Below, in pieces: positions 6,795-40,035 of a stretch of DNA of 45,026 nucleotides. Location of the stretch: the NCBI RefSeq assembly GCF_004010195.1, contig NC_057719.1, positions 7,193,060 through 7,238,085 of the forward strand. The letters run 5' to 3'. Both the position numbers and the translations under genes were made by a program. Below the pieces are notes generated by a model. The model was not told the DNA's origin and did no database searches. It worked only from the letters and a program-made list of their open reading frames with translations. Within the stretch, counting starts at the first letter, position 1, and every line of letters begins with the position of its first letter. The DNA comes from Chiloscyllium plagiosum (Eukaryota).

Positions 6795-7434
6795 TGTTTC
6801 TACCATGTACAGCTGATACAATAAAAATGAGACAGTGTTCCTTCCTCCAGGACCAAGGTGCTATATGAACAAACACACACTACATGAGAGTACAGGAGAA
6901 AATGAGGACTGCAGATGCTGGAGATCCGAGTCGAGAGTGTGGTGCTGGAAAAGCACAGCAGGTCAGGCAGCATCTGAGGAGCAGGAGAATCGATGTTATG
7001 GGCAAAAGCCCTTTATCAGGGCTTTTCCAGCATAAAGTATACAGAGAAGTGCAAAACATGCAATATAGCGCAGTAATTCCTGACAAGACAAGACAATAGG
7101 CACAGTGGTGGACAAATTACAATGTAACAATGAATGATCATTAATAAAACATTGTTTTAGCAGCAATTCAAAAAGTCATCCAAAAATTGCAAATGGAATA
7201 GGGTGTTATCATACAGTGTTAAGGAGCCTGATGGCTTGGGAGAAGAAACTATTGCAGTCTGATTGTGAGAGATCAAGTGCTTCGGTAACTTCTGCCAGAT
7301 GGCAGGAGGGAGAAGAATTTGAATGAAGGATGTGTAGGGTCATCCGCAATGCTGTTGGCCTTGTGGAGGCAGCATGTGGTGTAACTGTCTGTAATGGAGG
7401 GAAGAGAGACCCCAATGATCATCTTAGCTGCTGT
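6795..7434 (-). mobile_element. Rex1/Babar-clade LINE 3' part
   Basis: AAKMIIGVSLPSITDSYTTCCLHKANSIADDPTHPSFKFFSLLPSGRSYRS...CNSFFSQAIRLLN is a typical Rex1 ORF C-terminus. Confidence 0.85.
6896..7032 (-). mobile_element. Penelope family 1 pLTR with tail and a 12-nt inverted stub, inside the Rex1 3' UTR
   Basis: Homologous to 619-742. Ends CCCTTTATCAGG, then GCTTTTCCAGCA, which is the inverse of the internal TGCTGGAAAAGC. Confidence 0.85.
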
Positions 7435-8076
7435 CAGAGCACCACAGCTATCCCAAAGCCCTGAGGGCAGTTTCACAACCCAGCAATACCATAGCCACAC
7501 AAAGAACAGGTCAGACAGAGAGGCCACCAGCAAGAGCACTATTCCCAGAACAGGACAATGGAAGCACCTCACCGCTTCAGGGAAGACATTAGTACCTACC
7601 TGGCAGCACCCGCCCCATAACCCTCCAAACCTTCCTATTCATCTCCCCATCCAGATGTCTTTTAAATGTTACAATTGTACTAGTCTCCACCACTTCCTCT
7701 GGCAGCTCATTCCATACAGGCACCACCCTCTGCGTGGAAAAGTTGCCCGTTAGGTCTCTTTTTTTATATCTTGCCCCTCTCACCTTAAACATATGCCCCC
7801 TAGTTCTGAAATCCTCCACCCCAGGGAAGAGACTTTGTCTATTTATCTTATCCATGCCCCTCATGATTTAAAAAACCTCCTATAATGTTACCCCTCAGCC
7901 TCCGACGCTCCAGGGAAAACAGTCCCAGACTATTCAACTCCTCCCTACAGCGCAAATCCTCAAACCCTGGCAACATCCTTGTAACTCTCTTCTGAACCTT
8001 TTCAAGTTTCACAACATCTTTCCGATAGAAAGGAGACCAGAATTGCATGCAATATTCCAAAAATGTACAGTAATTT
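7435..8076. repeat. Composite local duplication: inverted copy of 8657-8816 fused to a direct copy of 9043-9518
   Basis: Direct sequence comparison. It shares private variants with the 9043-9518 CR1 copy that are absent from the 27.4-27.9 kb copy, and it interrupts the Rex1 ORF. Confidence 0.85.
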
Positions 8077-8250
8077 TTGTAGGTTTTATAGTCCAAGACC
8101 GTGCAATTCCTGAACTAGGCAGTGCTGCAGCTACTCTTGGTACTCTCAACGAACATTCTGTAGAATGTGATAAGAATGGGGGATGAAAGATGGGCTTTCC
8201 TCAACCGATGCAGAAAGTAGAGATGTTGCTGGGCTTTCTTGACTATGGAA
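8063..8250 (-). mobile_element. Rex1/Babar LINE, upstream part of the element at 6795-7434
   Basis: Minus strand reads SIVKKAQQHLYFLHRLRKAHLSSPILITFYRMFVES...*FRNCTVLDYKT. Confidence 0.85.
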
Positions 8251-8262
8251 CTAAAGTACTCA

Positions 8263-9508
8263 GGTCATAGAGATGTACAGCACAGAAACAGACTGTCGGA
8301 GAAATTAGCCCAATAAAGCAGAGACCACATAAACCAGATCAGGTGAAATTGACAAGCTGTTTATTACAAGCTATATGGCTGGAAGAGAAATTGACTAGGC
8401 TGACACAGCACTGATAGTCTGTGCAGGTAGATCAGAATTGCTCTTCCTCGAGCTGAGGAAGAAGCCAGTTTTTATTATAATCCTGAACAATGAGGCTAAT
8501 TAGAAATGGGGAAAATACAATGTATCTGGAAATGGAGTAATCTAGTTACAATGATGCTAATCAGAAAACAGTTATCAGAGGATGTCCTAATTCTCTACAC
8601 AAAGCAACATCCTGACAGTATTGATGGGTTCAGAGCTTCCATTCCTCTTCGCAGGGAGGTACTAATGTCTTCCCTGAAGTGGTGAGGTGTTTCCATTGTC
8701 CTGTTCTGGGAATAGTGCTCTTGCTGGTGCCTCTGTCTGACCTGTTCTTTGTGTAGCTTTGATATTGCTGGGCTGTGAAACTGGCCTCGGGGCTTTAGGA
8801 TAGCTGTGGTGCTCTGTCATTGTTAGTGGGAGCTTGAAGAGTTTTCCCTTGTCTGCGAGTGCTGTCTAGTTTTGCTCGTCAACATGCTTGGTCCCTGCTG
8901 AGGCATTCTGGATGTTTTTGCTATAGTTTGGCCAATTTTGCTTTTGTGGGCCTATTATAGGCTGGCAGGGTGGCACATCGTTTCCCACACAGACCCTTAG
9001 GTCCAACTCATCCATGCCAACCAGATATCCCAACCTCATCCCACCTGCCAGCACCCGCCCCATAGCCCTCCAAACCTTCCTATTCATCTACCCATCCACA
9101 TGCCTTTTAAATGTTACAATTGTACCAGCCTCCACCACCTCCTCTGGCAGCTCATTCCATACAGGCACCACCCTCTGCATGGAAAAGTTGCCCGTTAAGT
9201 CTCTTTTTTTAATATCTTGCCCCCTCACCCTAAACATATGCCCCCTAGTTCTGAAATCCTCCACCCCCAGGGAAGAGACTTTGTCTATTTATCTTATCCA
9301 TGCACCTCATTTTAAGAATCTGTATAAGGTTACTCCTCAACCTCCGACACTCCAGGGAAAACAGCCCCAGCCTATTCAACCTCTCCCTACAGCGCAAATC
9401 CTCCAACCCTGGCAACGTCCTTGTAACTCTTTTCTGAACCCTTTCAAGTTTCACAACATCTTACCGATAGGAAGGATACCAGAATTGCATGCAATATTCC
9501 AAAAGTGG
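8263..9508 (-). mobile_element. CR1 LINE 3' fragment, split by a solo LTR
   Basis: 8263-8293 (GTCATAGAGATGTACAGCACAGAAACAGAC) joins 8995 onward (CCTTAGGTCCAACTC), matching the uninterrupted copy at 27358. RT motif KLERVQKRVTRTLPGL. Confidence 0.9.
8294..8989 (-). mobile_element. Solo LTR (696 bp) of an LTR retroelement or ERV
   Basis: TG...CA termini with imperfect inverted ends TGTCGGAGAAA / TTTCCCACA; exact 5-bp TSD CAGAC (8289-8293, 8990-8994); on the minus strand a TATA-like TATAATAAAA near 8475 and AATAAA near 8360. Confidence 0.8.
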
Positions 9509-29190: not shown

Positions 29191-29443
29191 TTGTAGTAAC
29201 CTTTATAATGGACTGATTGTACACCTTCTGTCATATGTGGTTGTTTTAAAGTACATTGGTTTTGCACTGTCCAGTTTTTCAGTACTGTGGAGAACCTCGT
29301 AAAATCCAACAATCTCTGTCCCACAAATTGATTATTTTACATTGAATTCAAAATGCAAAGTATTACCTTAAAAGAAGAGAATTTAGTTTAGAATGGGAAT
29401 TGAATTACTGATTTATGATGTGCTTTTACCCTGTAGCTGAAGA

Positions 29444-29698
29444 CTCAAAATGTGTGACGCTGGAAAAGCATAGTTTACCTTTTCTTCAGTATCTGTTTTC
29501 AGGATGGCATGGAATGTCTTTTCATCTCGAGAGAAAACTGAATAGGGAACTATAGTTTCAGCTGCCACAGCTGATTCCATCAGAAGAGCTCATGTTCGCA
29601 ACCTCAATTGCCCTGCTGCTCGGATGCTGCCTGACCAGCTGTGCTTTTCCAGTGCCATACTTTTTGACTGATATCCAGCATCTGCAGTCCTCGTTTCT
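29444..29698 (+). mobile_element. Penelope family 1 inverted-pLTR insertion carrying captured local DNA
   Basis: Exact 14-bp TSD CCTGTAGCTGAAGA (29430-29443, 29699-29712). Short inverted arm 29444-29470, filler 29471-29581 matching 30631-30740, then a pLTR with tail. Confidence 0.9.
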
Positions 29699-32439
29699 CC
29701 TGTAGCTGAAGATTGCCATGTTACTACCTGACACACCTTTGGCATGGCACAGAAAATAAACTGATATTAGAACAAAATGTACTCATTGTATGTGAAAATA
29801 AGGCAGATACGTTGTAACGTGGAGATGAAAATCTGCAAGCACTTCTCAAAGTTAGAAAAGCTCATTTAAATACATATTTTATCTGGATCTCCTCAATTAA
29901 ACAAGGAATCTTATTTTATGTTTGCAGTATTAAAATACGTTTATAATTCTCAACTAAGGTCTGAGCATTGTTTCTTGTTTGAGTTATTCTGATGCTAACT
30001 GCATCAATTGCAACAAAATGACCGCATCTCACTGGATGTGGAAAATTACGCAATAGCCTACTTTGCTTGTAATTTCAACATTTTGGGGGTTATTGTCCTG
30101 TTGGGTTTTTAATTTTCTTCAAAACTTAAAAGTGCCAGATATGTTACGTGATTCAGCAGTGTCCTTGTACAGCTGTCATAAACAGTGTGGTCAGGTTTCT
30201 GAAAGCCAGACTCCAAGTTCTTTTGTAACTGTGTCAATAGGATCTTTTTCCTACTTTTAAAAAAAAAACAGTCACAAAACCTTTTGAAAGTTGGATTTCT
30301 TTTATCACTTTTTATTTGGGAACATTCACTTTCTAAAACAAAGCTCAGTGAACCGAGCGAGTGAAAGATTAAACATGAAAGGTTGGTTCTGAGTAGCAAT
30401 TTGTTATGCAGCCATCAGCTTACAGCAGTTATCTGATCTCCTAATGTACTTAAGTTTGAAAAAAAGGCTTTGCATGACAGCAGTGCTATAGCACTCCTTG
30501 TGGATCACCATGCAAAAGTTCTTCTCGCAAAGCCCCAAAATCTTCAGCTTCTCTATCTACATAAGCAAGTCTCATTGTCTGCAAAGGACTGAGGACAGAT
30601 TATCTAGTGCACTACTGGGACTCGTCCCTGTAGTTTACCTTTTCTTCAGTATCTGTTTTCAGGATGGCATGGAATGTCGTTTCATCTCGAGATAAAATGA
30701 ATAGGGAGCTATAGTTTCAGCTGCCACGGCTGATTCCATCCTACCACTATCAGGATAGCTGATTGTAAACAGCGCAGTGGTCTCTTAATGGGAGCCAGTA
30801 ATGATGCAGATGTGCCATCTGTGGCCTCCCACAGGCTGTATTGGCCTCTTTGTTGCCTTCCTTGTTAATGATTATTTCTATATTAATTCAATTTTCACAC
30901 AGAAGACTGAACATATTTTCACTTATGTACATATGTATATTTTTAAAATCTGCTGAAGTTTAAAATGACAGCTGTTCTATGTATACAGTAGAAGATTATC
31001 ATATGATCTGAGAAAACAATGATTAAAGCCCATTGACTACATTTTTATATACTGTGAAAACTGGAGTGCTGCATTAGATATCCGTAATAGGAATTAAGAT
31101 ATGATGTAACCCTCCTTCTATCCCTTCCAAGCATAAAGTCACTTAGTTAAGAGATTCATTTCCTTATTTGGGTTACATGATATTTTCAGTCTCCCATGAT
31201 ATTGAGAGATTTAAATCTAAAATCTGTGAAATAAGGTACTCTACAGTATTCTGTTTTTAAAAAGGGGGGCTAATTCCATAAGATGGTCAGTAAGCAGAAG
31301 CAAACTCATTCACTAGAGCCCCTGAAATATAATGTACATTTCCATTACTTTAGGTCATGTGCTAGTGAGGAGTGCAGTTTTTCGATCTGCCTGCAACCCC
31401 CACTATTTTCTCAGTCCATGGAATGAAGCTTACAGCTGCTTGTGTCCTGCTGCGCCTTTCATGAATGCCAAGCTGTATGCACAATGGCTGTAATTGGCTT
31501 GTAGTTGCTGTTTAGTTTCCTCACAATCATTCTGGCTTGTGGTTGCTAGGGTATGCAGGTAAATCTGACAGGAACAACGGCAAGTTTCCTGATTGTATAC
31601 ATGATGATTAACCTCATGTTAGGAGTGTCCAGGTTCATGGGATAAAACTACTGGCCTTGGATTTTCTTTAATAAGAATCATTGGTGGCCTGTCAATGATA
31701 GAAGGTACGGTGCATGACAGCTGGATAATCTTATTTATAAGTATGGTAGCTTCTGCTCAAGACAGTAAGATTTTTCAATTTATTCAATTTCTTCTGAAGG
31801 GTGGATGCAAGGAGGCTAAATTTCTTTAATTCTATAAACAATAATAGCTTGCATAATGACTACAAGCAAATGTTTTCATTAGTCTTTAATCCTTTAGCAC
31901 TGGTGTTCCACCATTTTAACACATGAAAGCATATTTTTCTCTGGCATGGTCAGTGCAGTATGATATTTGACCCAGGAAAACAAAATGCTCAGGGATTAAC
32001 TCAAGCCAACAATCTGCTAGATTGATGACCTGACAAGAGTCCACTTTCCAACCATTGCTGACCACGTGTTCAGTCAATGTGATGTTTTGTGAAAACAGAT
32101 GAAGCTCACTGAGGTCACATTAAAACAGCCAGACAGAAGGTATTAAATGGTCAAATTGTAATGCGTCCTCCATATCCATGCTCATAATGTTAATAACCAT
32201 GTAATTTTTAATTATTTTCAAGTAAATTTATGTAAAATACCATGTAGATTTTACTTAGACTTAGTTCACCAAAACACATTTACCAATGAGGAAGAACGTG
32301 ATTCTGGGAGATTGGTAAATGGAGTCCACATCTATGTTTGCACTGTTGCTTTTACCTTTTTGGAGAAGGCTTGAATCCGGAACAAAGTTTTGGGTTCTGA
32401 TCTGCCTCCGTTGTCAATGTAACGTTCTGCATTGCGACA

Positions 32440-38866: not shown

Positions 38867-40035
38867 GCAATCAGTGACGAGTGGTGTGTTGGAACCACGT
38901 TTATTGACAATTCATAGCGATGATTTAGAGTTGGGGACCATGGTGTAGGGTGTCAAACTTTGCAGAGGAACGTAGATACATTGAATGAGTGGGCAAAGGT
39001 CTGGCAGATGGAATACAATGTTAATAAATGTGAAGTCATCCATTTTGGCAGGAGTAACAGTAAAAAGGATTATTACTTGAATGGTAAAAAGTTGCAGCAT
39101 GCTGCTATGCAGAAGGTCCTGGGTGTCCTTGTGTATGAATCATAGAGCGTTGGTCTACAGGTACAAGAAGTAATTAGGAAGGCAAATGGAATTTTGTCCT
39201 TCATTGCTAAATGGATTGAGTTTAAAGACAAGATTATGTTGCAGATGTACAGGGTGCTGGAGTACTGCATGCAGTTTTAGTCTCCTTACTTGAGAAAGGA
39301 TGTACTGGCAGTGGAGAGGGTGCAGAGGAGGTTCACTAGGTTGATTCTAGAGTTGAGGGGGTTGACTTATGAGCAGAGATAGTAGACTGGAATTATATTC
39401 ATTGGAATTCAGAAAAATGGGGGGATTTCTTATTGAAACATATAAAATTATGAAGGGAATAGATAAGAGGGAGTAGAGAGGATGTTTCCACTGGCAGGTG
39501 AGTTTTAGTCTCCTTACTTGAGAAAGGATGTACTGGCAGTGGAGAGGGTGCAGAGGAGGTTCACTAGGTTGATTCTAGAGTTGAGGGGGTTGACTTATGA
39601 GCAGAGACAGTAGACTGGAATTATATTCATTGGAATTCAGAAAAATGAGGGGGTATCTTATTGAAACATATAAAATTATGAAGGGAATAGATAAGAGGGA
39701 GTAGAGAGGATGTTTCCACTGGCAGGTGAAACTATGACAAGAGGGCACAGCCTCAAGATTAGAGAGAGCAGATTTAGGACTAAATTGAGAAGGAACCTCT
39801 TCACCCAGAGGGTTGTTAATCTGTGGAACTCCCTGCCAGTGAAGTAGCTGACGCTACTTCAGTAAACGTTTTTAAAGCTAAGGTAGATTTACTTTGAACA
39901 ATAAAGGAGTTAAGGGATACAGTGAGAGAGTGGGTAAGTGGATCTGAGTCCATGAAAAGATCAGCTATGATGTAACAGAATGGTGGAACAGGCTCGAAGG
40001 GCCAGATGGCCTACGCCTGCTCCTAGTTCTTGTGT
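38867..40035 (+). mobile_element. CR1 LINE fragment
   Basis: LQRNVDTLNEWAKVWQMEYNVNKCEVIHFG and a 3' UTR ending GATGGCCTACGCCTGCTCCTAG. Confidence 0.92.
39273..39728 (+). repeat. Tandem duplication, 2 x 228 bp, inside CR1
   Basis: 39273-39500 and 39501-39728 both run AGTTTTAGTCTCC...CACTGGCAGGTG with only a few differences. Confidence 0.95.

What the first reader, a model, noticed from the sequence alone, without database searches (positions are those of the whole stretch)
29430..30740. Penelope insertion that captured about 110 bp of unique DNA from 1.1 kb downstream
Seen: between exact 14-bp TSDs lie a 27-nt inverted pLTR stub, then 29471-29581, then a pLTR starting within the hammerhead core. 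The filler is a near-identical copy of 30631-30740 (about 5 differences), which is otherwise non-repeat DNA. Target (CCCTGTAGCTG) and donor (CCCTGTAGTTT) share CCCTGTAG right where the copied tract begins. Inference: during integration the nascent strand switched onto nearby genomic DNA or nascent RNA and returned, so PLE integration itself duplicated host sequence in cis. This differs from ordinary 3' transduction and could be an under-recognised route for packaging host DNA between pLTRs.
Basis: partly seen in the sequence, partly recalled or inferred. Interest (0 to 1): 0.75.

Follow-up and report, generated by a model that had tools for sequence, protein, structure and literature searches.

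The report
Penelope insertion patched with neighbouring DNA
A small, dead Penelope-type jumping-gene insertion carries, inside its own insertion scar, a 111-base copy of otherwise single-copy DNA from 1 kb away, and three more such copies sit at the front ends of related insertions nearby, likely because repair copied neighbouring DNA while the insertion was being sealed, much as already seen for human LINE-1.

Summary
Observation confirmed. An exact 14-bp TSD encloses a 27-nt inverted pLTR stub, a 111-bp filler (106/111 identical to 30631-30740; two genome-wide hits) and a 117-nt direct pLTR. Two related species carry insertion plus filler, so it is old and not an assembly error; no empty site was seen. 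In a 1.85-Mb survey plus 35 loci, 4 of 496 pLTR 5' junctions (this one included) abut a local low-copy copy, donors 0.6-1.4 kb away, all same-strand; 0 of 450 3' sides do. Two of the three new cases have filler and element of matching age; one has a clean 16-bp TSD. Best reading (0.6): host repair synthesis copied nearby DNA at the unsealed 5' junction during integration. Rivals: later repair-mediated duplication into an older palindrome (0.22), RT jump to nascent RNA (0.15). It resembles L1 templated insertions and Pace et al. repair-mediated duplications; the PLE link with kb-range donors was not found in four searches. 'Packaging' for later mobilisation is unsupported: the ribozyme core is broken and no third copy exists. 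This scan noted the same kind before on other DNA of this genome (unchecked notes).

The parts
29430..29443 (+). left target-site duplication (14 bp)
   Evidence: 14/14 identical to 29699-29712, not extendable
29444..29470 (-). inverted pLTR stub (27 nt), likely second-strand (twin) primed; lacks the ~30-nt tail
   Evidence: reverse-complement match to 29639-29667; 58 of 93 TSD-bounded family members under 1.2 kb have an inverted arm, 9 of them 40 nt or shorter
29471..29581 (+). filler: copy of local unique DNA
   Evidence: 106/111 to 30631-30740; 2 hits genome-wide; present in organism C over 29471-29579 and in organism B at least to 29501
29582..29698 (+). direct pLTR arm, 5'-truncated inside the hammerhead core, with the family's 3' tail; core GAAA changed to GCAA
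   Evidence: 84-87% over most of its length to the best genomic relatives; alignment; a family member carries an ORF with a GIY-YIG match
29699..29712 (+). right target-site duplication; first CCT shared with the element's 3' end
30626..30633 (+). CCCTGTAG, 8-nt match to the target site at the donor's left edge
   Evidence: chance 0.2-0.7%
30631..30740 (+). donor segment, single-copy apart from the filler, no pLTR next to it
   Evidence: intact in organisms B and C

Best explanation
The insertion holds a 111-bp copy of DNA from 1 kb downstream exactly where its two Penelope-derived arms meet, likely because a host repair polymerase copied nearby genomic DNA while the insertion's unsealed 5' junction was being closed. 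Inferred steps: the PLE endonuclease cuts both strands 14 bp apart; the bottom-strand end primes on the RNA 3' end (CCT microhomology) and RT makes the 117-nt arm; the top-strand end primes internally and makes the 27-nt inverted stub; the two cDNA ends cannot anneal, so one free 3' end invades the duplex 1 kb away (AG/TAG match at the left edge, helped by the 8-nt CCCTGTAG match to the single-stranded TSD, or by a second nick at that look-alike site), copies 111 nt, is released and joins the other end (in-register ATTCC match). Shown: anatomy, low copy number, presence in three species, recurrence at 5' but not 3' junctions. Inferred: timing, enzyme, DNA template.
For: Filler sits exactly at the arm-arm junction inside one intact TSD. 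Survey: 5 of 496 5' junctions flagged, 4 real after inspection (1 was a 277-bp flanking duplication), against 1 of 450 3' sides (that same duplication, so 0 real) and 6 of 2316 random points. Excluding the focal case, 3 of 495 lie within about 6 nt of the PLE edge, expected 0.32, P=0.004 (narrow window chosen after inspection). Case 2 (C10:6680593-6680953) has no inverted arm, so no palindrome to break later, a 16-bp exact TSD, a 191-bp filler from 632 bp downstream (171/179) and an arm 95.5% to its nearest relative; its 21-nt linker reads like repeated short primings on the donor edge (read by eye). Case 3: filler 102/105, arm 96.8% to nearest relative, 2 hits genome-wide. TSD-based calibration puts neutral divergence for this subfamily at roughly 4-10%, which brackets filler-donor values of 4.5% (A) and 7/110 (C) (noisy). 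Donor distances match the 0.1-1.8 kb of 20 of 24 local duplications in the region and the about 1.2 kb peak of repair-mediated duplications. A PLE protein cuts and extends both strands in vitro.
Against: With the pre-set 48-nt window the 5' enrichment is not significant (Fisher P 0.08 with, 0.20 without the focal case; 5' vs 3' P 0.13). The focal arm looks older than the filler: 9 non-CpG changes in 104 sites (7 of them in the 29 sites next to the junction) versus about 3.5% per lineage for filler/donor (Poisson P 0.012; 0.16 if three variants shared with other copies are dropped), and stub vs arm 5/28 (Fisher P 0.02-0.07 against 5/111). Case 3 has no TSD within 3.4 kb and case 4 only an imperfect one with a filler (47/55) more diverged than its arm (92-95%). 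18 of 20 short-range local duplications have no TSD-bounded pLTR around them, so such patches also arise without these elements. No empty site was observed.
Confidence: 0.6

Rival explanations
1. The PLE inserted first as an ordinary inverted-arm palindrome; a later break at the hairpin centre was repaired by SDSA-like copying of DNA 1 kb away (a repair-mediated duplication inside a transposon), trimming the left arm to 27 nt.
For: Size (111 bp), distance (1.05 kb), single donor and microhomology fit Pace et al. (mean 162 bp, peak about 1.2 kb, found inside TEs). The arm is among the most diverged in the region (third lowest nearest-neighbour identity of 58). 18 short-range duplications without a pLTR scar occur in 1.445 Mb, one of them 52/52 bp interrupting another PLE-like ORF.
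Against: Short stubs need no deletion (8 other elements of 58 have arms of 40 nt or less and no local filler). Cases 2-4 have fillers at the 5' junction without any inverted arm, two with matching ages. Filler and donor may have been homogenised: in organism A the donor matches the filler at 29515 and 29520 where B and C donors differ. TSD is 14/14. TSD calibration removes much of the age gap.
Confidence: 0.22
2. The PLE reverse transcriptase itself jumped from its RNA to a nascent host transcript of the locus, copied 111 nt and was then joined to the other cDNA end.
For: One L1 case with co-inserted nearby pre-mRNA is reported. Other elements here hold non-local repeat-derived fillers at the same junction (elements 55, 60, 83), which suggests RT template jumps occur. 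All 4 local donors are same-strand as the element.
Against: No host exon was identified in the window (150 of 153 non-repeat ORFs scanned, no credible host-gene domain), so no transcript is tied to the donor. Donors lie both downstream (3) and upstream (1). The 8-nt target-donor match and the iterative linker of case 2 are easier to explain by DNA microhomology priming. Same-strand in 4 of 4 has P 0.125 by chance.
Confidence: 0.15
3. Assembly artefact, dispersed repeat, or ordinary 3' transduction from a source element beside the donor.
For: The pLTR family is extremely abundant and can confuse assembly (depth table).
Against: Contigs from other individuals and two other species cross the TSD-stub-filler joint and carry their own filler variants; 2 hits genome-wide; nearest pLTR to the donor is this element, 926 bp away; the filler lies 5' of the arm, not 3'. 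The filler-to-arm joint itself was not covered by any laid contig.
Confidence: 0.03

Closest known systems
L1 'templated insertions' (bioRxiv 10.1101/2024.08.27.596794, passages; PMC11702581, passages; bioRxiv 10.1101/2022.05.18.492429, passages)
   Same: Non-element DNA from near the target copied into the insertion during integration; template under 250 bp; can accompany twin priming; proposed SDSA-like pairing of the nascent strand.
   Different: Element is a PLE, germline and fixed across species; donors 0.6-1.4 kb away, whereas the 22 L1 cases typically lie within 15 bp (their Supplementary Fig. 4d was not visible).
Repair-mediated duplications, Pace, Sen, Batzer, Feschotte 2009 (PMC2671141; parts 1-2 of 8 and passages)
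   Same: 50-600 bp copy, one donor within 5 kb (peak about 1.2 kb), microhomology, no poly(A), sitting in a transposon.
   Different: RDs were defined as interrupting a pre-existing collinear TE; here the copy joins two opposite-facing arms at the integration junction inside the element's TSD. Sharks and PLEs were not among the genomes or features in the parts read.
Canonical EN+ PLE insertion with inverted 5'-truncated pLTR, tail and TSD, and PLE capture of host DNA in Adineta vaga (PMC3846280; parts 1-3 of 5); PAc biochemistry (PMC11167929; parts 1-2 of 4)
   Same: TSD, inverted arm, one-sided tail; unrelated non-coding DNA between solo pLTRs inside a TSD was reported; both strands are cut and extended in vitro.
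   Different: There host DNA is taken as mobilised in trans to a new site between pLTRs on an RNA; here the donor is local, has no pLTR beside it, and nothing was re-mobilised.

Membership tests
EN+ Penelope-like element (non-autonomous fragment) | pLTR homologous to copies joined to an RT plus GIY-YIG ORF | tested here: inconclusive
   A TSD-bounded family member (L132:2650-3681) has a 253-aa frame with PF01541 GIY-YIG at E 1.9e-4, 22.1 bits, just under the 22.6 cut-off; an RT-thumb-like frame in L101 had no Pfam hit
EN+ Penelope-like element (non-autonomous fragment) | TSD with inverted 5'-truncated pLTR and one-sided 30-40-nt tail | tested here: met
   structure as described in PMC3846280
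EN+ Penelope-like element (non-autonomous fragment) | hammerhead ribozyme in the pLTR | tested here: inconclusive
   Core motifs CTGA(T/A)GA...GAAA seen in relatives (motif recalled); no Rfam hammerhead hit in the window; MFE folds did not give the ribozyme; the focal copy has lost CTGATG and has GCAA
Repair-mediated duplication (Pace 2009) | at least 50 bp, one donor, same chromosome, under 5 kb, not tandem | tested here: met
Repair-mediated duplication (Pace 2009) | microhomology or filler at junctions, no poly(A/T) | tested here: met
   AG/TAG left, in-register ATTCC plus one extra base right
Repair-mediated duplication (Pace 2009) | interrupts a pre-existing TE (orthologue has the TE without the insert) | tested here: inconclusive
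   both relatives available already carry the filler; no more distant outgroup was listed
L1-type templated insertion | local template under 250 bp inside the element's TSD | tested here: met
L1-type templated insertion | template typically within 15 bp of the site; element is L1 | tested here: not met
   1,049 bp away; PLE-type arms
3' transduction / pLTR-flanked trans-mobilisation | source element adjacent to the donor; carried DNA 3' of the element or between two complete pLTRs | tested here: not met
   no pLTR beside the donor; filler is 5' of the direct arm; stub is 27 nt

The most novel reading that the evidence does not exclude
Penelope integration breaks are a steady source of repair-mediated local duplications in this lineage: about 0.6-0.8% of 5' junctions are sealed with 50-200 bp copied from the same strand 0.6-1.5 kb away, which would mean several thousand such duplications genome-wide (3 in 1.74 Mb extrapolated) and would tie the kb-range duplications of Pace et al. 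to a named, datable cause.
Probability: 0.45. Interest if true: 0.55.

Novelty: new variant of a known kind. Interest (0 to 1): 0.4.

Why it matters
How PLEs finish second-strand synthesis and seal their 5' end is unresolved (PMC11167929 calls these steps unvalidated). Junction fillers are fossil footprints of that step, and with roughly 260 pLTR hits per Mb this genome could yield thousands, enough to test DNA versus RNA template, donor side and strand, and timing. They would also give a cause for part of the kb-range repair-mediated duplications in vertebrates. The single locus itself is dead DNA with no sign of function.

Tried and rejected
Rfam scan of the window: no hammerhead, only chance miRNA-like hits. 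First TSD-anchored survey needed an intact 3' tail and found only the focal case (1 of 99), with 5-8 of 99 hits in each of four 300-bp flank controls, mostly repeats or segmental duplications; the first junction test (4 of 348 5', 5 of 314 3', 20 of 1381 random) did not require an edge and was replaced. A genome-wide search for foreign fillers between two arms could not be run, so the rate rests on one region of one contig plus 35 loci. Search for a closer sub-subfamily of the focal arm: 7 matches including itself, the 6 others sharing only part of its variants. Donor as a coding exon: all three frames on each strand of the donor are closed when read by eye; no host gene found in 150 of 153 ORFs (three hits: two below or near noise, one PF09004 likely a retroelement remnant, recalled). 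Strand skew was too weak to give a transcription direction. No empty site among 6 laid runs. TSD-based age calibration is noisy: young copies also score 0.59 mismatches because of short TSDs. Literature searches for PLE-coupled local capture listed nothing beyond the papers cited; some searches gave the L1 and repair parallels. The library lacks most subscription papers, and bioRxiv supplements were closed.

Full report
Observation. The sequence and alignments confirm every coordinate: a 14/14 direct repeat at 29430-29443 and 29699-29712, a 27-nt reverse-complement stub of the pLTR, a filler 29471-29581 that matches 30631-30740 at 106 of 111 columns, and a direct pLTR 29582-29698. A genome-wide search with the donor region returned exactly these two places. 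The TSD's first CCT is also the family's 3' end. The 8-mer shared by target and donor edge arises by chance in 0.2-0.7% of 20,000 random donors (post hoc).

What the element is. The arm belongs to a very abundant family: 458 pLTR hits in 1.845 Mb, of which 0.10 Mb is N. Its best genomic relatives among 40 scored of 3,061 candidates are 84-87% identical over most of its length. TSD - inverted arm - direct arm - TSD is the usual build: 58 of 93 TSD-bounded copies under 1.2 kb have an inverted arm, 9 of them 40 nt or shorter. A longer family member has a frame with a borderline GIY-YIG match. This fits the canonical PLE structure in PMC3846280 (parts 1-3 of 5 read) and the two-strand cutting and extension shown in PMC11167929 (parts 1-2 of 4). 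The focal arm has lost the first part of the hammerhead core and has GCAA for GAAA (core motif recalled; Rfam gave no hammerhead hit). That the host is a shark is my recollection from the repeats and is echoed by earlier scan notes; no call names it.

Other species. Runs of three organisms hold the region. In B, a contig runs from the left flank through TSD and stub 31 nt into the filler; in C, one contig covers 29446-29579 with its own variants; both have the arm's 3' end, right TSD, spacer and donor. Flank divergence is 31/981 (A-B) and 41/1064 (A-C). No laid contig covers the filler-to-arm joint and no empty site appeared in the 6 runs laid. Site states (read by contig depth; two near-end sites inferred from counts and contig breaks): three filler-donor differences predate the split (29520, 29538, 29549); C's filler has 4 private changes, so C filler-donor is 7/110; in A the donor agrees with the filler at 29515 and 29520 where B and C donors differ, a hint of gene conversion or parallel change. 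Filler-donor identity is therefore a soft clock, about 3-4% per lineage.

Age. Against the majority of 29 relatives the arm has 7 non-CpG changes in the 29 sites next to the junction and, by hand recount, 2 in the other 75 (the script's 8 is inflated by a misplaced end gap). Overall that exceeds 3.5% per lineage (P 0.012; 0.16 if three shared variants are dropped), and stub versus arm is 5/28. But over its 3' 105 nt the arm's neighbour identity, 0.93, is typical of the searched loci, and TSD mismatches in them (7 of 16 scorable perfect; 43 hits examined) imply roughly 4-10% neutral divergence (noisy). So dating neither confirms nor excludes simultaneity.

Recurrence. In 1.845 Mb around the window plus 35 search loci, 5 of 496 pLTR 5' junctions were flagged; 4 are true local copies and 1 is a 277-bp duplication flanking a PLE end. 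That duplication is also the only hit among 450 3' sides; 6 of 2,316 random points were hit. Case 2 (C10:6680593-6680953, minus strand): 16-bp exact TSD, 21-nt linker, 191-bp filler from 632 bp downstream (171/179 plus a 12-nt insertion), single arm 95.5% to its nearest relative; part of the filler is an old repeat, but only the local donor matches its whole length. Case 3 (filler C10:6422823-6422927): 102/105 to DNA 1.4 kb downstream, 2 hits genome-wide, arm 96.8% to nearest relative, no TSD found. Case 4 (about C10:6429330-6429384): 47/55 to DNA 1 kb upstream, imperfect TSD by eye. All four donors are same-strand. Enrichment is not significant with the pre-set 48-nt window (P 0.08-0.20) and is with a 12-nt window chosen after inspection (P 0.004). 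Background: 24 distinct low-copy local duplications in the first 1.445 Mb (30 rows merged; some partly repeat), 20 with donors 0.1-1.8 kb away, only 2 inside a pLTR scar.

Mechanism. I favour capture by host repair synthesis at the unsealed 5' junction (0.6): the filler is exactly where two cDNA ends had to be joined; single-arm cases with age-matched fillers cannot be explained by later palindrome breakage; distances equal those of repair-mediated duplications. Later repair into an older palindrome (0.22) stays open for this copy because of the old-looking junction-proximal arm and the local background of such duplications. An RT jump to nascent RNA (0.15) has an L1 precedent and non-local fillers at the same junction in elements 55, 60 and 83, but no transcript could be tied to the donor.

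Known relatives and novelty. L1 templated insertions (22 cases, under 250 bp, typically within 15 bp; passages; three more in PMC11702581, passages) share the timing but not the distance or the element. Pace et al. 2009 (parts 1-2 of 8 and passages) share size, distance and junctions but were defined as interrupting older TEs. PMC12016303 (passages) covers twin priming only. PLE capture of host DNA in Adineta is described as mobilisation to new sites. Four searches listed no paper on PLE-coupled local capture; subscription papers and preprint supplements were out of reach. Five earlier notes of this scan report the same kind elsewhere in this genome; they carry no coordinates and I did not test them. 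I file this as a new variant of a known kind, interest 0.4. The idea of packaging for onward movement is not supported: two copies only, a 27-nt stub and a broken ribozyme core.

Noticed in passing
window 7432-7602 and 8652-8819: 171-bp low-copy inverted local duplication (157/168), 1,049 bp apart, one end abutting a LINE-like fragment at 7595-8076; no TSD found.
   Followed up: partly
window 39273-39729: Tandem duplication of about 229 bp at 98% identity.
   Followed up: no
L171:7534-7894 (C10:6680593-6680953): Second clear case: 16-bp TSD, 191-bp local filler, linker that looks like repeated abortive priming on the donor edge.
   Followed up: yes
L210, C10 about 6400330-6400940: 56-nt PLE 3' end flanked by a 277-bp direct duplication at 98% (a giant TSD-like structure).
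   Followed up: partly
L015:2860-3251, L080:5828-6179, L112:4392-4622: TSD-bounded PLEs with non-local fillers between the arms (one looks like LINE RT DNA, one like another PLE family's ORF, both by recollection): possible RT jumps to other element RNAs.
   Followed up: no
L098, C10 about 7595934-7595985: 52/52-bp copy of DNA from 1,019 bp upstream interrupting a PLE-like ORF: a recent repair-mediated duplication.
   Followed up: partly
L077, C10 about 7386581-7386632: 29-bp inverted copy from 354 bp away flanked by a 12-bp direct repeat inside another repeat, with no pLTR.
   Followed up: no
window 29583-29612: Cluster of 7 non-CpG changes in 29 sites of the arm right beside the filler joint; could be error-prone synthesis at the junction.
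   Followed up: partly
window 8118-8264 (-): Pfam PF09004 match, E 2.8e-14; likely a retroelement-associated domain remnant (recalled).
   Followed up: no
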